NCBI GenBank assembly: GCA_964016885.1
Contig: OZ024763.1
Coordinates: 27,590,001 to 27,654,000 of the forward strand
Source: Eledone cirrhosa
Taxonomy: Eukaryota
Reading direction: 5' to 3'
Length of the DNA: 64,000 nt
This document shows, piece after piece, positions 1,310-62,240 of the stretch (positions are counted from its first letter, which is position 1; each line of letters starts with the position of its first letter). Below the pieces are notes generated by a model that was given only the letters and a program-made list of their open reading frames with translations, was not told the origin of the DNA and did no database searches. A program made the translations under genes and the position numbers.

Positions 1310-4300
1310 ATAGATCAATTGAGAGTTGGCTGTTTGAACGCGCGTGGCCTGGGCTCAGCTTGGAAGCAAGCAAAGCTTCTAAGTGACCTCAGGTCACAAA
1401 GTATAGATGTGATGGTTGTTTGCGAGAGTCGGATCAGCAGCGTGAGACAGCTGGCGCCCGCCTTCGATGACTTTGAGATGCACGCATCTCTCTGTCAACC
1501 CGGAGGCGGGGGGGGGGGGGGGAGTTGCCGTACTGCTGGATAAACGTCTGACTCTCGACGTACAGATTGTTCACTCGGACCCGGGGGGTCGATTACTGGT
1601 GCTGGACGTCGGAGGCGGTGAAGGCGGGGCTTTCAGACTGGTCGGTCTTTATGCTCCCTTCGGGGCGGAAAGAGCCGACTTCTTCCAACGTCTGGAGACT
1701 TTTCTAGGAACGTCGCGTTCCCTGCTTTTAGTGGGGGACTGGAATGGAATCCTAGATGCGCGTTGGGACTATGCAGGGGCATGTCCCGATAGAGGGGGGT
1801 GTAGCAGCCTCAAGGGGTTACTCGATCGATTCGACCTGGTCGATAGGTTTCGACTAGATTGTCCAACTGCGCCAACCTGGACCTGGGCAAACCGCAGTGG
1901 ACAATCTAGATCGTACCTAGATAGGTTTTTGGTTAGGAGTAAGGATAGGGACGTATTTAGTTGTCCAGAACTGATCATGGTTGGCTATTCAGATCACAAA
2001 TTAGTGACCTGCGTGGTCAACCTTGATAGAACGCATAGACAGGGTCCCGGTTACTGGAAGATGAACTTGTCCTTACCGACAAAGAAAGATTACAGAAACC
2101 GGATTAGTAGCTTAGTTAAGATGCGGTTGACGGGAGCGATCGTCAACAGTAGGTGGTGGATATCTCTAAAGAGAGAGATTAGAGTAAGTTCGATAGGTTA
2201 CAGTAAGGAACTAGCGGCGCATAGAAATAGGAGGGAAAGGGAGTTAACAGATAAACTAGAAGAGGCGATTAGGAGCGGAGACGTAGCCAGAGTGTTAGCG
2301 ACGAGAACGGCATTGAGCCAGTTCTTTGACGCGAAGCACGAAGGCTGCGTTGTCCGAAGTAAAATACGTGCTTTAGGAAACGAGGGGACCAAAGCTGTTA
2401 GCTGGGCCCGCGTGACAGAAGCCAAGAGTGGGATTAAATCCACCATTCGGTCTTTGCGAGACCAGGATGGACGGGTGATCCTTGAACCTGAGCGAATGTG
2501 CGAGACCTTTCAAAGGCACTTTGCTCGACTGTTCGGAGGTGGCGGGGGGCCGGACGGGGATGTGGACTTCGGTCCATACCTCGACGGTCTACCGCGTCTT
2601 TCGAGCGGCGAAGCGGAGTGCTGCGAAGGGCCAATCACAGCCACTGAAATCGGGGAAGCGCTCAACCAATGCAGCAGACGCAAATCCCCGGGTCTCGATG
2701 GTCTACCATACGAACTTTATTTAGCTATGCCGGTCTTGTTCTCCGAACTCCTCGAGGCTGTCTATTGCAACTGGCAACAGAACGGGAGAATTCCCTGTTC
2801 TGTGACCAAGGGCGTGGTCACGCTAGTGAGGAAGGACGAGAGCAAGGGGGACGACTTAAGTAACTTTAGGCCCATAACTCTGCTGAATGCAGAGTTACAG
2901 ATTTTGGCCAAGGTGTTGGCGAAGAGGTTGGCGCTTGTGGTGGGTGGTTTGGTGGGAGACGCGCAGACATGCGCTATCCCGTCCAGGTCCATTCACGACA
3001 ACCTCCACCTCATGCGATACATCATAGAGAGGGTTGGCTACGAACCCGGCTTTGGTGGGGCCCTGATCAACTTGGATCAATCTAAGGCGTTCGATAGGGT
3101 CGACCATGGTTACCTGGATGCGGTGCTAGCGGCGGCGGGCTTCGGACCCGTTTTCAGGGGCTGGATTTCTGCCATGCACAGTGGCAACATCTACTCTAGG
3201 ATTAAAGTAAACGGCTACCTCTCGGAGCCGTTTCAAATCACCCGATCCATCAGACAGGGGTGCCCCCTCTCCTCCCTTCTGTACGTATTGACTCTCGAGC
3301 CACTGCTGCGGAAGTTGGAGTTGCTGCGGGGCATACCCCTGGAACCGGGATTGCACAAAGCGGTCTCGGCCTATGCCGACGACGTAACAGTAATGGTGGC
3401 GGACGCCTCGGAAATCGGGGCGATCGCCACCCTACTGGAGGAATACGAAAGGCTGACGGGGGCTAAGCTGAACCAGGACAAGTCAGTCGGTTTGCAACTC
3501 GGAACGTGGAGGGGCAAACCGATGCCGTTAGACGGTGTCGTCGGGCGGTGGACGGAGGGCCCGGTGAAGCTGCTCGGGGTCTGGTTCGGACCGGACCTCC
3601 AGGTGGAGAAGAATTGGGGCGAGGTGACGAGCAGGGTGTTTGCGCTGACCCAGAAGTGGGCCAAGTGCAAACTATCACTGAAAGGTCGGGCGGAGGTGAC
3701 GAACGCTTACATAGCGTCCGTCATCTACTACCGCCTGACCGTCGTGCCTTGCCCCAAGGAAAAGCTCACCATCATGGAACGCATGCTCTTCCAGTTCCTC
3801 TGGAAGAAGCGGCCTCCCATGGTGAGGAGATCCATCTGCTGCCAGCACCCTTCGAAAGGAGGGCTGGGTATGCCGTGGCTGTTGATGCGTAGGCACGCAT
3901 TGAGGCTACGGCATCTACAGGTATTCCTCAACGGTCAGCCGGTGTGGGCCCCGTTTGTGAGGCGAGCCTTCCCACAGCTCGTCTCGCTCACCGAACTGCA
4001 ATCCTGGGTGAAGCAAAGACCGAGAAAACTGGGCAACTGGCACACTGAGTGTGCCCAGGCGCTCACGGCTATCTGGCAAGCGGACCCGACTGTCAGTGGA
4101 GAATCCACCTCGACATTCTATAGAGGGTTGGTGGCTAGCAGGGGCGACGACACCCTTGGAAAGTCGCTAGGCATGGAGGAGGACGAACTGGCCAGCCTGT
4201 TCGGAAGAACTTTCGGCCCGGGACCCATGGACAACTTCCAGAGGTCCCTAGCCTGGCAGTGTTACCGGGGGGCTCTGCCCGTTCGAGAAAAGCTCTACAA

Positions 4301-4754
4301 ACACGGGCGCCCAGGCAGGGATCCCGCGAAAAAGATCTGTCCCAGATGCGTGCGCGACGAGGAAACCGTTGCGCATGCACTGGTACACTTCCCGGGCGTT
4401 GCCGATCTGTGGGGCTACGTCGAACGACTGCTGTCGCGTGTGGCGCCGATTCGATTAACCGCCGAGTCTGTGGTGAACATCAAGCCGCCTCCTCCCTTCA
4501 GAAATGAAGCAGAGGCGGTCTTTCTGTGCGTAATAGCCATGATGAAAGAGGTTGTGTGGTGGACGCGCCTGAAAGGTCTGAGGTCGGGTGACTTTCTCTC
4601 CGGCCATCACCTGGTTTACTTCTTCCGATACCACTTCGGAAGAAGAATCAGGATGGAGAGAGAAGTGCTTGGTCCCAGACAGTTTTATGAAAGGTGGGTG
4701 AAAGAAGCGAGAATGGCCCGTGTAAATGGGCCTTCTCTCTACATTGTTCTGTAG
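1310..4754 (+). CDS. Tx1 ORF2: AP endonuclease + reverse transcriptase, with a 1-nt frameshift in G15 at 1508-1522
   Basis: APE motifs LRVGCLNARGL and VVCESR lie in the ORF1 frame. GVAVL, LYAP, VGDWN, SYLDRF and SDH follow in the next frame. RT motifs: KSPGLDGL, FRPITLLN, LDQSKAFDRVDH, IRQGCPLS, YADD (3372-3383). The C-terminal CPRC..ET..H zinc finger has its last Cys replaced by Phe. Confidence 0.92.
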
Positions 4755-5206
4755 GTGAAGAAGTGAAGAGGAAAGGGGGAGCGCCTCCTCTCTGGGCTTC
4801 CCCAGCGAAAAGAGTTGCACACTTTTCGGGGGTATGTGCAATCCCCAACACGCCCCCTCCCTTTTGAGGACTTTTTATTGTTATATTATTATTGTTATTC
4901 CTTTTTTCTTTACTCGATTTATGTAAACTCCCCCACTGTGTAAATGTCCCTTTCTTTTGTGCCCTCGTGGCAAATAAATAGAAATTTATCTATCTACCGA
5001 TCTACCGATCTGTCTATCTATCTATCTACCCATCTATCTATCGATCTATCTCTCTAGGTATCGATCACCCTAGTTAGCTTGCTTGATAACTATACACTTA
5101 ACATTTAATCTATCTATTTATCTAAGCCGCATCACTCTCTCCCTTCCTAAACACACACACTCACACGCACACACACACGCACGCACACACGCACACCCAC
5201 ACACAC

Positions 5207-17119: not shown

Positions 17120-17713
17120 ACTTTAATTGTATCTCTCTCTCTCTAATGGCCTATCTCTCTCTTTTTCCCTCCCTCTGTTTTTCTGTCTCTCTCTGTAGAT
17201 GTGTGTGTGTAGTTTTTTCTAATCTTTCTCTCTCTCTCTCTCTCTCTCTATGTGTATATATTGAAGGGAGATACGGAAACTAAAACAGTGTTGTCATATA
17301 GAGAGTGAAGAGCGACAGAGAGAGTAAAGCAGTTAAATTATAGAGAGGGGGAATATAAAGTATAGATATGTGTGTGTGTGTGTGTGTTTGTGTATGTGTA
17401 TGTGTGTTTGTGTATGTGTGTATGTGCATGCGTGTGTCTGTGTGTTTTGTTTTGATGTTATATTATGTGTGGTGGTGGATTGGCAGTATCGGTAGAGGGT
17501 CGGACGCCATGCTTTCCAGCATAGTTACGTCCCTTTACGATCTGAGTTCAAATCCCGCCGAGGTTGACTTTGCCTTTCATCCTTACGGGGTCGATAAAAT
17601 AAAGTACCAGTAATGCACTGGGTGATTGCTGGCCTTGTGCCTAAAGTAGAAACAGTTATATTATGTGTGTGTGTGTGTGTTACTTATGCGAGCGACGACA
17701 GAAAGTATGTGTA

Positions 17714-18306: not shown

Positions 18307-18394
18307 ATTAAAGTTTAAGCAAAGAATCGCTGCTTTCACCCTTAACGGGATCTTCTGAAGGGTGAAAGCAGCGATTCTTTGCTTAAACTCTAAT
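18307..18394. repeat. Fold-back palindrome (37-bp arms, 14-nt spacer) with a hammerhead-like remnant
   Basis: Arms 18307-18343 / 18358-18394. Minus strand reads caGAAGA t ccc gttaa ggg t GAAA. Confidence 0.7.
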
Positions 18395-18449
18395 GTTATT
18401 TTAATATATATTTAATTACTATACTATATATATATATTTAATATATATA

Positions 18450-18635
18450 AGGGCCGTGGATTGGCAGTATCGGTAGAGGGTCAGACGCCACGCTTTCTAG
18501 CATAGTTACGTTTCTTTACAGTCTGAGTTCAAATCCCGCCGAGGTTAACTTTGCCTTTCATCCTTACGGGGTCGATAAAATAAAGTACCAGTAATGCACT
18601 GGGTAATTGCTGGCCTTGTGCCTAAAGTAGAAATA
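18450..18635 (+). mobile_element. Full-length tRNA-derived SINE
   Basis: Same family. Probable TSD GTTATTTTAATATATATTT at 18395-18413 and 18636-18654. Confidence 0.9.
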
Positions 18636-18724
18636 GTTATTTTAATATATATTTGCTCTAGGGTTCTTATATATTTGATATATATTTATCCTTATCGAAC
18701 CCTCTCTGGATTTTAGTCTTCACA

Positions 18725-24440: not shown

Positions 24441-24791
24441 AGAAAACAGAGTTTAAATATGATTTTATAAATTAAATATGTTAGTATACTTTAATATTAA
24501 TTTAGACATTTATAAACTTTTATAGCCTGAAATATTATACCTTTATATTAATCCATTATTCGAAATTTAACGATCAGCCGGATAAGTTTGGATATATATA
24601 GTGTATATAAATAATTGTTAGTATATTTCTTATTAATTGAGGACTCGAAATTAAACCCTCATATAATTACACCCAGATATATTTAATATTTAGATAGATG
24701 GATACTTCGAGATAATTCAAAGAATCGAGTTTACTCTTTCACATAGCTATGCCCAAATGTATATCCATGTATTTATCTATGCTTTATACTA

Positions 24792-24898
24792 ATTTTTAAA
24801 TTGCATTTGTGATAATATTTTACACGTTTTTATTGTATGTAAACTTCCCCTTTGTATTTGTCCCTTTCTTTTGTGCCCTTGTGGCTAATAAAGAAACA
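24792..24898 (+). mobile_element. 5'-truncated Tx1 3' UTR insertion with an 18-bp TSD
   Basis: Matches the 44250-44356 3' UTR. TSD TATCTATGCTTTATACTA at 24774-24791 and 24899-24916. Confidence 0.88.
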
Positions 24899-25248
24899 TA
24901 TCTATGCTTTATACTATAGAAATTATTCCCCTTTGTCTCTCTATCCTTGATCAATTCTCTTTTGCTTTCTATACTTCTAGTAACTAGATTTTTATCCTCA
25001 TCTGTTTCTCTCTGTCTTTCTTCATTCTTTCTTCTTTCTTCAATAATTTAAATTATTTTAATCTCTAACAGTTATGTAAACTGCTATTATGTATTTTTAA
25101 GCTTTCTCACACGCACCCCCTGTATTGTATGTAAATTTTTTCATGTCTCAATCTTAAGGTATATAAATATTGAGTCTTGTCATATCATATTCACTACCAT
25201 GACTGAATCTTAACCATCTACTATGTCAGGGTATGTCATGCATCATCT

Positions 25249-31197: not shown

Positions 31198-31659
31198 CTA
31201 TCTATCTAGGGCGGGTAAAATTCCCGAGACCCATGGACGAGTTCTCTCCACCGGTCTCTGTCCCTCATCATCGCTGCCATGTCCTGCATCTCCAAGAGCC
31301 CAGTGTCTGTCCTTAGGGAATCAACATATGTTAACCTCGGTCTTCCCCTTCCAGTGTGTCCGTGCAAGGGCTCCCACAGGAGCACTGAGTGCAGTGTCAA
31401 CTCTGGATGTCGGTGAGCCTGTCCAGCTAACCTCAGTCTTCTCTGTGTTACCCTCGAGCTGACTTTTGAGAGGCTCCCGTACAGCTCTGAGTTCTTCATC
31501 CTCAGTGTATACTGATTAATGTTCAGAGCCATCCTCAACATTCTTGTGTAGCACCCATCCACCATCTGAGTGAGTTTCTTGGTCAGTGTCCAAGTCTCAG
31601 ACCCATACAGCAGCACAGACTCCACTACAGTTGAGAGGAAGTGCAAAGCCTGGGCGGCG
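31198..31659 (-). mobile_element. 5'-truncated RTE LINE with a 5' inversion
   Basis: ORF 31206-31646: VESVLLYGSETWTL..RRLRLAGQAHRHPE..GRGRPRLTYVD, with a short (TAGA)n tail. 31630-31659 matches 59376-59405 in the opposite orientation. Confidence 0.88.
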
Positions 31660-31667
31660 AAAGACTA

Positions 31668-32554: not shown

Positions 32555-32665
32555 TGTTTTTTTTGGTTTATTTACACGCAGAAATGCCCTTTTGTACCGT
32601 CCTGTATTGTCCTGCACTGTCCTTAATGTCTACTTTATGTAAGCCCTTGTGGTTAATAAAGAAAA

Positions 32666-32666
<1 letters not shown>
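32555..32666 (+). mobile_element. 3' end of a second Tx1-like family inserted in (ATT)n
   Basis: Ends GCCCTTGTGGTTAATAAAGAAAAC then (ATT)n. The upstream UTR differs from the TATC family. Confidence 0.6.
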
Positions 32667-43911: not shown

Positions 43912-44784
43912 GTAGTGTCCCCTTTTCATGTGCGCCCTTGTGGCTAATAAAGAAATATATCTATGTATCTATCTATGGGCCTTCTCTCTATATCAGCCTG
44001 TAGGTTTTTTTAACGCCAAACATAATTAATATATCATCTAAGTTTTATGAAAGGTGGGTGAAAGTGGCGAGAATGGCCCGAGTGAATGGGCCGGGGCTTC
44101 TCTCTATATCAGCCTGTAGGTTGAGGAAAAAGAGGAAGAGAGGAAAGGGGTACAAACTCTTCGTACTCCTGGAGATGAGGGTTGCACATTTTTTCGGGGG
44201 TATGTGTTACCAATATGTAATGTCTCCACCTATTGGGGAAAATCGATTAACTTTTAAATTGTATTTGTGATAGTATTTTACACGTTTTTATTGTTTGTAA
44301 ACTTCCCCCTTTGTATTTGTCCCCTTCTTTTGTGCCCCTGTGGCTAATAAAGAAACATATCTATCTATATCTATTTATCTATCTGTCTATCTATCTATCT
44401 GTCTATCTGATTCGGTTTTTCAAATATCATTTTGGAAGAAGAATCAGGATGGAGAGAGAGGTGCTGTACCCCAGCAAATTTTATAAAAGGTGGGTGAATG
44501 TGGCAAAGATGGCCCGAGTGGTTGGGCCTTCTCTCTATATAAGCCTGTAGGTTGAGGAAAAAGAGGAAGAGAGGAAGGGAGTACTCACTCTTGGTGCTCC
44601 TGGAGATGAGGGTTGTACATTTTTCGGGGTGTGTACAACCCCTGTGTAACGCCTCCCCCCACCCCTATTGGGGATTTCAATTATTATTTGTTATTTTATT
44701 AATAGTTTTATTTTCATATACCTGTATGTAAACTCCCCATTTGTATTTGTCCCCTTCTTTTGTGCCCTTGTGGCTAATGAAGAA

Positions 44785-44785
<1 letters not shown>
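43909..44785 (+). mobile_element. Cluster of 5'-truncated Tx1 copies stacked in a (CTAT)n tract
   Basis: Fragments 43909-43955, 43976-44004, 44036-44356 and 44410-44785. The last encodes FFKYHFGRRIRMEREVL..RWVNVAKMARV.GPSLYISL, matching the ORF2 C-terminus. Each complete 3' end is followed by TATCTAT. Confidence 0.9.
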
Positions 44786-44819
<34 letters not shown>

Positions 44820-52355: not shown

Positions 52356-52540
52356 GGGCGGTGGATTGGCAGTATCAGTAGAGGGTCGGACGCCATGCTT
52401 TCCAGCATAGTTACGTCCCTTTACGATCTGAGTTCAAATCCCACCGATGCTGACTTTGCCTTTCATTCTTACGGGGTCGATAAAATAAAGTACCAGTAAT
52501 GCACTGGGTAATTGTTGGCCTTGTGCCTAAAGTATAAACA
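52356..52540 (+). mobile_element. Full-length tRNA-derived SINE with an 18-bp TSD
   Basis: TSD ATTATTATATGATTATAA at 52338-52355 and 52541-52558. Confidence 0.92.
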
Positions 52541-58394: not shown

Positions 58395-58818
58395 TAAGAG
58401 GAATTCCAACTTTGTCTGATTTACTCGTTTTATTTACAATCCTTTAAAATATATAATGGTATTATAATGAAATAGTATGATAGAATATTAAATTCTAAGT
58501 GTTAATTGAACAAGTACTTTCATGCTTTCGCAATCTTCAGGTTCATAATATGTGGTGACAGTCGAGTTTGCAATTTTCAACTGTTGAAAATTGCAAACTC
58601 GACTGTCACCACATATTATGAACCTGAAGATTGCGAAAGCATGAAAGTACTTGTTCAATTAACACTTAGAATTTAATATTCTATCATACTATTTCATTAT
58701 AATACCATTATATATTTTAAAGGATTGTAAATAAAACGAGTAAATCAGACAAAGTTGGAATTCCTCTTATTAATATAATCTTCTATACACAATCATACAC
58801 ACCCGTGTATATTTACCT
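58387..58818. mobile_element. 391-bp palindrome (195-bp arms, 1-nt centre at 58582) plus a 41-nt tail; PLE remnant
   Basis: 58387-58581 is the reverse complement of 58583-58777. I found no mismatch by eye. Confidence 0.9.
58619..58657 (+). ncRNA. Minimal type I hammerhead ribozyme (mirror copy at 58507-58545, minus strand)
   Basis: tgaac CTGAAGA t tgc-gaaa-gca t GAAA gtac TT gttca. GNRA loop II and palindromic GTAC loop III. Confidence 0.87.
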
Positions 58819-58850
58819 ATCTATCTATATATATATATATATATAATCAC

Positions 58851-59875
58851 TGCCTGATGAAGATCTTACAGGCTTATGGAATCCCCAAGAAGATAGTGGA
58901 CCTGATATCACTGCTCTACACCAACACCAAAGCCCAAGTCATTACACCTGATGGGATGATAGAGTTCTTTGAGATACTGGCTGGAGTGCTCCAGGGAGAT
59001 ACATTGGCTCCCTACCTTTTTATCATCGTAGTGGACTATTGTATGCGCCTTGCACTGGAGAAACACCAGGACTCTGGCTTTACTGTAGCACCGGCTCAGA
59101 GCAGGAGAGTTAAGGCGAAAAAGGTATCAGATGCTGAATTTGCCGACGACATAGTTTTGGTGACAAATACAATGAAGGAGGCAGAGGATTTGATGCGGGA
59201 GGTTGAGACTGTGTCGATGAGTGTGGGGCTGAGAATGAATGAGACTAAAACAAAATATCTGGTAGAGAATGCTGAGGAGCCAGAGGGGATCACTAATGTA
59301 GGCGGGAAGCCGCTAGAATTGGTTGAGGGCTTCCTGTATTTGGGAGCAAAGATTGGGAATACGGAAGATGATGTGGTTGAGAAGAAGAGCAAAGCCTGGG
59401 CGGCGTGCCACAGCTTGAGATCGGTGTGGGAGTTGGAACTTCGTAAAGACCTGAAAATCTGCCTCTTCATTGCTGTAGTGGAGTCTGTGCTGCTGTACAG
59501 GTCTGAGACTTGGACACTGGCCAAGAAACTCACTGGTGGATGGGTGCTACACGAGAATGCTGAGGATGACTCTGAACATTAATCAGTATACACTGAAAAT
59601 GAAAACTCAGAGCTGTATGGGAGCCTCCCAAAAGTCAGCTCAAAAGTGACACAGAGGAGACTGAGGTTAGCTGGACATGCTCACCGACATCCAGAGTTGA
59701 CATTGCACTCAGTGCTCCTGTGGGAGCCCCTACATGGACACACTGGAAGAGGAAGACTAAGGTTAACGTATGTTGATGCCCTAAGGACAGACATTAGCTC
59801 TTGGAGACGCAGGACATGGCAGCGATAATGAAGGACAGAGACCGCTGGAGAGAACTCGTCCATGGATCTCGGGAC
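58851..59875 (+). pseudogene. 5'-truncated RTE-clade LINE (RT and C-terminus, frameshifted)
   Basis: GVLQGDTLAPYLFII, EFADDI, GLRMNETKTKYL, FLYLG and VESVLLY.SETWTL; frameshift near 59533; then RRLRLAGHAHRH. Confidence 0.92.
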
Positions 59876-60399
59876 ATCACCACGATCAACACTACCACCA
59901 CCACCACCACCAACACAAACACCATCACCATCACCACCAACAACATCAACACCACCAACACCAATACAACCACCACCACCAAATCAACGACCAGTATCAG
60001 CACCACCACTACCACCATCACTAACACCACCTGTACAAAGTCTTCCGTTATAGTAGAATGAGATTTAATCTGTTATTCTGTTGTGCTGTTAACTCAAGGA
60101 TTCCTCCTCACTACGTAAAAGCTTCCTTTGGTTGATCTCAAATAACGGTAAACGGACATTCGTTCTCTGCCAAAAATTGGATTAAAGACATTCACCTGTT
60201 GGCAGCTAAGTCTAACAAGATAAAACTAAACAATGTCCTTACCTGTAGTTGATAATTTAATTTAGCTTTGATCTAGTTATCTAATTAGTAACATCAGCTA
60301 TTTCATTAATGATTACACATAAGAACACATTTCAACGGTCAGATTTAGTCACGTTCATTATGATGGTGGTGGTATTGTTGTTATTTTAGCTTTGGTTTT

Positions 60400-60589: not shown

Positions 60590-62240
60590 ATAGGGTTACA
60601 TCGCTTTACATTCTGAGTTCAAATCCCACCGAGGTTAGCTTTTCCTTTTATCTTTATGGGGTCGATAAAATAAAGTACCAGTGACAAATCGGAGTAGATT
60701 TAATCGACTTTCCCTTCTTCCCAAAATTGTTATCTTTATGGGGTCGATAAAATAAAGTACCAGTGACAAATTGGAGTCGATTTAATCGACTTTCCTTTCT
60801 TCCCAACATTGTTATCTTTATGGGGTCGATAAAATAAAGTACCAGTGACAAATTGGAGTCGATTTAATCGACTTTCCCTTCTTCCCAAAATTGTTATCTT
60901 TATGGGGTCGATAAAATAAAGTACCAGTGACAAATTGGAGTCGATTTAATCGACTTTTCCCCTCTTCCCAAAATTGTTATCTTTATGGGGGTCGATAAAA
61001 TAAAGTACCAGTGACAAATTGGAGTCGATTTAATCGACTTTCCCTTCTTCCCAAAATTGTTATCTTTATGGGGTCGATAAAATAAAGTACCAGTGACAAA
61101 TTGGAGTCGATTTAATCGACTTTCCCTTCTTCCCAAAATTGTTATCTTTATGGGGTCGATAAAATAAAGTACCAGTGACAAATTGGAGTCGATTTAATCG
61201 ACTTTCCCTTCTTCCCAAAATTGTTATCTTTATGGGGTCGATAAAATAAAGTACCAGTGACAAATTGGAGTAGATTTAATCGACTTTCCTTTCTTCCCAA
61301 CATTGTTATCTTTATGGGGTCGATAAAATAAAGTACCAGTGACAAATCGGAGTCGATTTAATCGACTTTCCCTTCTTCCCAAAATTGTTATCTTTATGGG
61401 GTCGATAAAATAAAGTACCAGTGACAAATTGGAGTCGATTTAATCGACTTTCCCTTCTTCCCAAAATTGTTATCTTTATGGGGGTCGATAAAATAAAGTA
61501 CCAGTGACAAATTGGAGTCGATTTAATCGACTTTCCCTTCTTCCCAAAATTGTTATCTTTATGGGGTCGATAAAATAAAGTACCAGTGACAAATTGGAGT
61601 AGATTTAATCGACTTTCCCTTCTTCCCAAAATTGTTATCTTTATGGGGTCGATAAAATAAAGTACCAGTGACAAATTGGAGTCGATTTAATCGACTTTTC
61701 CCCTCTTCCCAAAATTGTTATCTTTATGGGGGTCGATAAAATAAAGTACCAGTGACAAATTGGAGTCGATTTAATCGACTTTCCCTTCTTCCCAAAATTG
61801 TTATCTTTATGGGGTCGATAAAATAAAGTACCAGTGACAAATTGGAGTCGATTTAATCGACTTTCCCTTCTTCCCAAAATTGTTATCTTTATGGGGTCGA
61901 TAAAATAAAGTACCAGTGACAAATTGGAGTCGATTTAATCGACTTTCCCTTCTTCCCAAAATTGTTATCTTTATGGGGTCGATAAAATAAAGTACCAGTG
62001 ACAAATTGGAGTCGATTTAATCGACTTTCCCTTCTTCCCAAAATTGTTATCTTTATGGGGTCGATAAAATAAAGTACCAGTGACAAATTGGAGTAGATTT
62101 AATCGACTTTCCCTTCTTCCCAAAATTGTTATCTTTATGGGGTCGATAAAATAAAGTACCAGTGACAAATTGGAGTCGATTTAATCGACTTTCCCTTCTT
62201 ACCAAAATTGTTGGCCTTGTACCTAAATCAGAAAGAATTA
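60590..62240 (+). repeat. SINE whose central 82-83 bp is amplified into a 19-copy tandem array (about 60650-62210)
   Basis: Head with a B box at about 60615. Unit ATCTTTATGGGGTCGATAAAATAAAGTACCAGTGACAAATTGGAGTCGATTTAATCGACTTTCCCTTCTTCCCAAAATTGTT. SINE tail GGCCTTGTACCTAAATCAGAAA at about 62213-62235. Confidence 0.92.

What the first reader, a model, noticed from the sequence alone, without database searches (positions are those of the whole stretch)
17631..17660. SINE 3' end mirrors the Tx1 3' hairpin with a compensatory base-pair swap: candidate Tx1-SINE partnership
Seen: Tx1-type 3' ends read GCC-CT(T/C/G)GT-GGC-TAATAAAGAAA (4961, about 24875, 32643, 32990, 43934, 44764). The dominant SINE ends GGC-CTTGT-GCC-TAAAGTAGAAA (17631, 18612, 52517 and minus-strand copies). 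The 5-nt loop and the spacing to AGAAA are the same, and the middle stem pair is flipped from C-G to G-C. SINE TSDs are 15-19 bp and begin RTTAT, similar to the 18-bp TATCTAT TSD of Tx1 at 24774 and the ATT-inserted ends. Known: many SINEs borrow the 3' stem-loop of a partner LINE, mostly in the CR1/L2/RTE clades. Inference: this SINE is mobilised by a Tx1 family that recognises a 3' hairpin rather than a poly(A) tail.
Basis: partly seen in the sequence, partly recalled or inferred. Interest (0 to 1): 0.75.

Follow-up and report, generated by a model that had tools for sequence, protein, structure and literature searches.

The report
Octopod SINE shares Tx1 tail hairpin
A very abundant short jumping element in what is likely an octopus genome ends like one lineage of long retrotransposons (a predicted 3-base-pair RNA hairpin with the same loop) and lands at the same ATTAT sites, so those retrotransposons likely copy it; such shared tails are known for other retrotransposon groups.

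Summary
Observation mostly confirmed. The SINE tail (154,147 exact copies genome-wide) matches the 3' ends of an L1-group, Tx1-type LINE lineage at up to 19 of 24 end-anchored bases (0/1000 shuffles). The two stem differences swap one pair C-G to G-C. Among eight other LINE ends sampled, none gave a longer or better match. New here: the likely partner is the ATT-tailed branch, not the TATC-tailed Tx1 in the window. 99 of 108 SINE ends run into ATTAT (0-1 mismatch), none into TATCT. SINE TSDs are 10-22 bp (median 14) and begin ATTAT. ATT-branch LINEs keep the SINE's loop, and one LINE clade shows a second compensatory change (G-C to A-U). Against: no LINE family carries the SINE's G-C pair, and the shared stretch is only about 24 nt. 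The hairpin is weak and is not predicted in 8 of 9 full-length SINE RNAs. LINE TSDs are readable in only a few copies. Partnership about 0.72; hairpin recognition itself is untested (about 0.5). A tail-sharing SINE/Tx1 pair was not found in my paper searches.

The parts
17472..17654 (+). SINE copy, short (S1) subfamily: tRNA-type head, central domain, LINE-like tail
   Evidence: blastn family in window; A and B box motifs; no ARAGORN or Rfam hit
17481..17492 (+). Pol III A-box-like motif
   Evidence: box consensus recalled
17544..17555 (+). Pol III B-box-like motif
   Evidence: box consensus recalled
17631..17641 (+). SINE 11-mer, predicted 3-bp stem with 5-nt loop, middle pair G-C
17642..17654 (+). 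6-nt spacer, AGAAA and two terminal bases
17457..17471 (+). 5' copy of 15-bp TSD
17655..17669 (+). 3' copy of 15-bp TSD
18456..18635 (+). second SINE copy (11-mer at 18612); 19-bp TSD at 18395-18413 and 18636-18654
52357..52540 (+). third SINE copy (11-mer at 52517)
62132..62236 (+). 3' part of long (S2) SINE subfamily, same tail, about 29 extra nt upstream
1446..4754 (+). ORF2 (endonuclease + reverse transcriptase) of a young TATC-tailed L1-group/Tx1-type LINE
   Evidence: Pfam Exo_endo_phos and RVT_1; 40 genomic copies about 100% identical over the 3' 431 nt; a relative's best PDB match is human L1 ORF2p, E 1.5e-52
4961..4971 (+). LINE 3' hairpin, followed by AATAAA, GAAA and (TATC)n
24792..24898 (+). 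5'-truncated TATC-type LINE end (hairpin 24875-24885), 18-bp TSD at 24774-24791 and 24899-24916; best match to the SINE tail (19 of 24)
32643..32666 (+). ATT-type LINE end (hairpin with G-U pair) followed by (ATT)n
   Evidence: same 3' UTR as ORF2-linked L076/L078
32990..33014 (+). very short ATT-type LINE end inside an (ATT)n tract
43934..44787 (+). three stacked TATC-type LINE ends (hairpins at 43934, 44334, 44764)

Best explanation
This SINE ends in an 11-base motif plus GAAA that matches the 3' end of an L1-group (likely Tx1-type) LINE lineage and sits in ATTAT targets, and it is likely copied by ORF2 protein of the ATT-targeting branch of that lineage. Shown: tail similarity, target, TSDs, LINE clades. 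Inferred mechanism: Pol III transcribes the SINE from its A/B boxes. ORF2p would bind the terminal hairpin, reading the loop by sequence and the stem by shape, which would let the middle pair flip. Its endonuclease would nick next to Y|ATTAT, the nicked strand would pair with AUU at the RNA end and prime reverse transcription, and a staggered second cut would leave 10-22 bp duplications. The SINE has lost AATAAA, which a Pol III transcript would not need. The tail probably came from an older ATT-type family and then changed, since no present family has the G-C pair.
For: (1) End-anchored identity to SINE copy 17631: 19, 17 or fewer of 24; 6 of 7 Tx-type ends p<=0.008 against 1000 dinucleotide shuffles; 7 of 8 other LINE ends p>=0.09. 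(2) 77 of 108 SINE ends are followed by NN+ATTAT, 22 by one mismatch, 0 by TATCT, 1 by poly(A). Target logo Y|ATTAT, n=60; TSD >=10 bp in 88 of 221 against about 8 by chance. (3) An ATT-tailed branch exists: 2,194 and 2,513 exact ends; 23 of 30 fetched ends carry ORF2 homology upstream. Its readable TSDs are 12-17 bp and start ATTAT (L325, L332, L341, L345); 3 of 37 unique TSDs against 0.5 by chance (one doubtful). (4) Loop CTTGT, as in the SINE, in 81 of 85 ATT-type ends but 17 of 85 TATC-type ends (partly fixed by search patterns). TATC families form one clade (97/91) beside three ATT lineages. (5) Stem kept in 123 of 126 ORF2-linked ends; first pair G-C 96, A-U 26, G-U 3; 100 of 100 listed ends of the U11 family have A1. 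On 22 tails, covariation score 0.371 against 0.144 shuffled and <=0.116 slid. (6) In 55 S2 copies the 11-mer and GAAA are conserved while spacer positions vary between subfamilies. (7) Rivals: RTE-tailed elements show no TSD outside simple repeats (3 of 32 >=10 bp, all in repeats); the (ATT)-tailed CR1 has another tail (6 of 24) and no ATT tract at any of 21 5' junctions, one possible TSD; the Dong/R4-like family ends in (TAA)n, the opposite orientation; CR1c ends in an 8-nt repeat. (8) Stem-general, loop-specific binding was shown for L2 ORF2p (PMC4176376, abstract read).
Against: No LINE family with the SINE's G-C pair and AATAAA: 17 and 9 genome-wide hits, 15 of the 17 in SINE context, 4 of the 9 not inspected. 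Similarity stops at about 24 nt, shorter than the 35-61 bp of bivalve pairs (PMC11481361, section 13). Local-alignment p-values for ATT-type ends against copy 17631 are modest (0.004, 0.045, 0.06), and the best match is a TATC-type end. The SINE hairpin is about -3 kcal/mol; pair probability 0 in the last 40 nt of S1 copies, where another fold wins, and <=0.07 in 8 of 9 full-length RNAs. Covariation rests on two events; the count of doubly changed pairs was not significant (138 of 500 shuffles). In 25 truncated ATT-type LINEs with long tails no unique-sequence TSD was readable. LINEs sit mostly in long ATT tracts, SINEs mostly at 1-2 units (LINE set selected). One CR1 end also scored 13 of 24 (p=0.006). 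Only 844 kb of 3.0 Gb was surveyed for LINE families. No RNA or assay data.
Confidence: 0.72

Rival explanations
1. Same partner, different signal: the ATT-type LINE moves the SINE, but recognition rests on the GAAA-NN-(AUU) end pairing with the nicked target. The 11-mer is an inherited remnant, or is kept for another fold of the SINE RNA. This overlaps with the best explanation on partnership and differs on mechanism.
For: Hairpin not predicted in 8 of 9 full-length SINE RNAs. In S1 tails the swapped bases pair with upstream sequence in a fold of about -10 kcal/mol. LINE fragments of about 30 nt insert with TSDs, which says nothing about recognition.
Against: S2 subfamilies lack the adjacent upstream partner yet keep the same 11-mer while the spacer varies. 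LINE families with otherwise different 3' UTRs keep the stem, with a compensatory A-U.
Confidence: 0.35
2. The SINE is moved by another LINE (an unsampled low-copy or extinct CR1/L2/Nimb/RTE family) and the likeness to Tx1-type ends is chance or ancient.
For: No present Tx1-type family has the G-C pair. About 154,000 SINE tails against some thousands of ATT-type LINE ends. Mollusc SINE partners in print are CR1, CR1-Zenon, L2 and Nimb (PMC4824008 section 11; PMC11481361 section 13). Survey covered 844 kb.
Against: Eight other LINE ends gave no better match; sampled CR1 and RTE-tailed elements lack the TSD signature; tail, loop, target and TSD length all point to one lineage. No SINE-type stem with a non-SINE body and ORF was seen in the sample.
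Confidence: 0.2
3. The TATC-tailed Tx1 family in the window is the partner.
For: Best single match, 19 of 24, is to 24875; TATC-type ends are three times as common as ATT-type in the sample (15 against 5); TSDs 12-21 bp in 6 of 23.
Against: 0 of 108 SINE ends run into TATCT; loop differs from the SINE's in 68 of 85 TATC-type ends.
Confidence: 0.04

Closest known systems
Stringent SINE/LINE pairs with a 3' stem-loop (UnaSINE/UnaL2; ZfL2-1, ZfL2-2; PMC4176376 abstract, PMC3747384 Table 1)
   Same: Shared 3' end, small stem-loop, microsatellite tail, loop conserved while the stem can vary
   Different: Partner here is L1-group, not L2/CR1; shared part only about 24 nt; long TSDs; no assay
Maize/sorghum ZmSINE2/3 with LINE1-1_ZM, and Chlamydomonas SINEX-3_CR with L1-1_CR (PMC3472496 passages)
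   Same: L1-clade LINE sharing a structured 3' end with a SINE, with compensatory changes
   Different: Plants and algae, 50-80 nt shared; here an animal, microsatellite-targeting lineage
Crocodilian SINEU with Tx1-Mar (PMC4494074 passages and section 16)
   Same: A SINE inferred to be moved by Tx1 from shared target preference
   Different: SINEU has snRNA heads and poly(A) tails; link rests on target, age and 5' ends, no shared 3' hairpin in the passages read
Octopus OR1/OR2/OK SINEs (Ohshima and Okada 1994; not read, cited in PMC4824008 and PMC4758252); tRNA-Core/tRNA-Deu octopus SINEs (PMC8967140 passages)
   Same: Abundant tRNA-type SINEs of octopods; this family is probably one of them (recalled likeness)
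   Different: No sequence comparison was possible; no partner LINE is named in the passages read
Kibi, Koshi and crocodilian microsatellite-targeting Tx1 (PMC4494074 passages)
   Same: Tx1-type LINEs inserting in microsatellites
   Different: Targets there are (TC)n, (TTC)n, (TTCC)n, (TTTC)n; here (ATT)n and (TATC)n

Membership tests
tRNA-derived SINE | [quoted passage not shown] | tested here: met
   Motifs at 17481 and 17544 (consensus recalled)
tRNA-derived SINE | Recognisable tRNA ancestor | tested here: inconclusive
   No ARAGORN hit, no Rfam hit at E<=10; usual for diverged heads
tRNA-derived SINE | Short, non-coding, high copy, TSDs, 5' truncation | tested here: met
   About 185-215 nt; 154,147 tails; TSDs, 131 of 221 near full length
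CORE or Deu/Nin SINE superfamily (OR1/OR2/OK) | Homology of the central domain to the published domain | not testable with these tools
   No reference sequence on hand
L1 group (L1/Tx1) LINE | APE endonuclease + RT ORF2 closest to L1; upstream ORF1 | tested here: met
   best PDB match human L1 ORF2p 1.5e-52 against R2 2.7e-22
Tx1 clade | RT phylogeny with named Tx1 elements | not testable with these tools
   No homologue was named Tx1; the atlas did not answer
Tx1 clade | Target sequence preference | tested here: met
   (ATT)n and (TATC)n targets segregate by clade
Stringent SINE/LINE pair | Shared 3'-terminal sequence | tested here: met
   Up to 19 of 24, 0 of 1000 shuffles; short
Stringent SINE/LINE pair | Conserved stem-loop with compensatory changes | tested here: inconclusive
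   Met for the LINEs; in the SINE one swap, fold not predicted in 8 of 9 full-length RNAs
Stringent SINE/LINE pair | Same target and TSD signature | tested here: met
   ATTAT start, 10-22 bp against 12-17 bp in few ATT-type LINEs
Stringent SINE/LINE pair | Concurrent activity | tested here: inconclusive
   Both span about 82-99% nearest-neighbour identity; 7 of 82 unbiased SINE copies and 17 of 57 selected ATT-type ends have a neighbour >=98%; not a proper age profile
Stringent SINE/LINE pair | Trans-mobilisation depends on the tail | not testable with these tools
   Needs an assay

The most novel reading that the evidence does not exclude
An animal L1-group (Tx1-type) lineage uses stringent recognition of a minimal 3-bp RNA hairpin, reading the loop and ignoring stem sequence, while changing its microsatellite target from ATT to TATC; its ATT branch drove the dominant SINE expansion of this octopod genome. 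This would be the first tail-sharing SINE/LINE pair in the animal L1/Tx1 group that I could find.
Probability: 0.45. Interest if true: 0.72.

Novelty: new variant of a known kind. Interest (0 to 1): 0.56.

Why it matters
SINEs are a main part of octopus genomes (11.6% in O. vulgaris, PMC13282606), and the papers I read name no enzyme that copies them. This gives a specific candidate and a 24-nt signal to mutate. Ohshima proposed that ancestral L1-clade elements were stringent and relaxed later, on plant and algal examples only (PMC3472496). An animal L1-group lineage with a hairpin tail and a SINE partner would be a test case. Families that share the hairpin but differ in target also allow RNA recognition and DNA targeting to be studied apart.

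Tried and rejected
Search for a LINE with the SINE's stem: none as a family. A half-swapped SINE subfamily: 695 hits against 154,147 (0.45%), 0 of 100 listed with the compensating base, read as background mutation. Deep conservation of the hairpin: 80 distant metagenome relatives (24-40% identity), 41 with a downstream AATAAA/ATTAAA, showed no such hairpin and several end in poly(A); viral contigs gave nothing. TSDs of full-length LINEs: unreadable, because they carry their own microsatellite at the 5' end. First automatic TSD pass on LINEs gave mostly tandem artefacts. Cross-species check: 20 runs from 12 studies hold part of the SINE, no RNA holder listed; two raw-read runs laid no reads and two contig runs covered the stem thinly, with no variant listed there, so stem variation in other species stays open. 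Naming the clade through homologue names failed. Two rows in the tree (second L277 and L082 ends) share an ORF with a neighbouring end and were ignored. Eight paper searches found no SINE/Tx1 tail pair and no partner for octopus SINEs; Repbase Reports, Ohshima and Okada 1994, Akasaki 2010 and all supplements were not seen and may bear on novelty.

Full report
Setting. The window lies in a 3.0-Gb animal genome. The repeat make-up (dominant tRNA-type SINE, L1/Tx1, CR1, RTE, Dong/R4, Penelope-type ORFs) resembles that reported for octopuses (PMC13282606, first third read; PMC8967140, passages). 'Octopod' is my inference.

The observation. The SINE has A- and B-box-like motifs and two length classes, S1 and S2, that differ by about 29 nt before the tail and share the tail. 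Its tail occurs 154,147 times exactly. The LINE at 1446-4754 encodes endonuclease and RT, belongs to a very young family, and a relative's closest solved structure is human L1 ORF2p. It is L1-group; 'Tx1' rests on its target preference, since no named Tx1 sequence could be compared.

Is the likeness more than chance? I took 15 LINE ends from 844 kb of position-picked DNA plus fetched loci: 7 Tx1-type, 3 CR1-like, 3 RTE-like, 2 R4-like (clade labels from domain hits, mutual similarity and recall). Anchored at the 3' end, SINE copy 17631 matched the Tx1-type ends at 19, 16, 16, 15, 15, 13 and 11 of 24 bases; six had p<=0.008 against 1000 shuffles. The other eight scored 6-13; only one CR1 end reached p=0.006, and its local alignment was not significant. 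That CR1 ends in an 8-nt repeat. That two differences within an 11-mer fall on one pair and restore it has about a 2% chance by simple counting (3/55 x 1/3; my arithmetic).

Which branch? The lineage has (TATC)n-tailed and (ATT)n-tailed families. ATT-type ends number in the thousands (2,194 and 2,513 for two patterns) and 23 of 30 fetched carry ORF2 homology upstream. In a tree of ORF2 C-termini the TATC families form one supported clade beside three ATT lineages, with the base unresolved. The SINE runs into ATTAT (77 exact and 22 one-mismatch of 108), never TATCT, once poly(A). Its TSDs are real (88 of 221 >=10 bp, about 8 expected; median 14) and the target reads Y|ATTAT. ATT-type LINEs give readable TSDs of 12-17 bp starting ATTAT in a few copies (loci chosen for ATTAT followed by a non-T base, so the start is set by selection, the duplication is not). 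With a null, 3 of 37 against 0.5 for ATT and 6 of 23 against 0.3 for TATC. Most ATT-type copies lie in tracts or stacks where a TSD cannot be read. The SINE's loop is that of the ATT families (81 of 85) more than the TATC families (17 of 85, partly selected).

Rival LINEs. An (ATT)-tailed CR1 (752 ends) has an unrelated tail, and none of 21 truncated copies has an ATT tract at the 5' junction; one may have a 20-bp duplication. RTE-tailed elements end in (GAT)n, with long matches in 3 of 32, all inside simple repeats. A Dong/R4-like family ends in (TAA)n, opposite in sense. Families too rare for an 844-kb sample, and extinct ones, are not excluded.

The hairpin. In the LINEs it is well supported: kept in 123 of 126 ORF2-linked ends across families with different 3' UTRs, with G-C, A-U and G-U at the first pair, pair probabilities 0.8-1.0 in tail folds, and consensus fold by RNAalifold. 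The covariation score beats shuffles and slid controls, but the number of doubly changed pairs does not (138 of 500), and only two independent events lie in the three core pairs. In the SINE the case is weaker. S2 subfamilies hold the 11-mer and GAAA while the spacer varies. Yet the stem is marginal, loses to another fold in S1 tails, and has probability <=0.07 in 8 of 9 full-length RNAs. No LINE family has the SINE's G-C pair, and single-swap SINE copies are at background level. The hairpin is not seen in 80 distant relatives, so it is specific to this lineage.

Mechanism. Most likely an ATT-branch ORF2p binds the SINE's 3' end, nicks beside Y|ATTAT and primes on the AUU end (inferred from target-primed reverse transcription, established knowledge). 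For L2 elements, ORF2p reads the stem generally and the loop specifically (PMC4176376, abstract); a flipped stem pair with an unchanged loop is what that rule would allow. Whether it holds here is untested. I put the partnership at 0.72 and hairpin recognition at about 0.5.

What is known. [quoted passage not shown] SINEU is linked to Tx1-Mar by target and has poly(A) tails (PMC4494074, passages and section 16). Bivalve SINE partners are CR1, CR1-Zenon, L2 and Nimb (PMC4824008 section 11; PMC11481361 section 13). PMC5786205, PMC4758252, PMC5804259 and PMC3531059 (passages) add nothing on this pair. Eight searches found no such pair in print; Repbase Reports and the original octopus SINE papers were not available.

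Verdict. A real and reasonably supported new variant of a known kind: shared SINE/LINE tail, unusual partner clade. Interest 0.56.

Noticed in passing
window 17631, 18225(-), 18612, 18876: Four neighbouring SINE copies all have G where the target normally starts with A (GTTAT); across 60 TSD-bearing copies G occurs once. Unexplained.
   Followed up: no
window 60650-62212: Tandem array of about 19 units of 82 bp made from the central part of the S2 SINE, ending in an intact SINE tail at 62213.
   Followed up: no
L278, L281-L283, L286, L291, L296, L298-L303 5' ends: Full-length Tx1-type copies begin with their own target microsatellite, some with a short shared upstream piece, and stack head to tail.
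   Followed up: partly
L122, L269, L282, L283, L295, L332: ATT-type LINEs inserted directly behind SINE tails, and SINEs behind LINE tails (L052, L109): each makes targets for the other.
   Followed up: partly
window 18316-18392: Near-perfect palindrome of about 75 bp between two oppositely oriented SINEs, possibly a small MITE.
   Followed up: no
L378 (minus strand): Dong/R4-like LINE with a (TAA)n tail abuts an ATT-type LINE end in opposite orientation; the same flank recurs behind many ATT-type ends.
   Followed up: partly
window 31206-31664(-) and 58779-59900(+): Two fragments of an RTE-like LINE with almost no 3' UTR.
   Followed up: partly
tails of Tx1-type families, e.g. window 24858-24898: Many LINE tails can extend the hairpin by a lower stem between the U-rich upstream run and AAAGAAA; not tested for covariation.
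   Followed up: no
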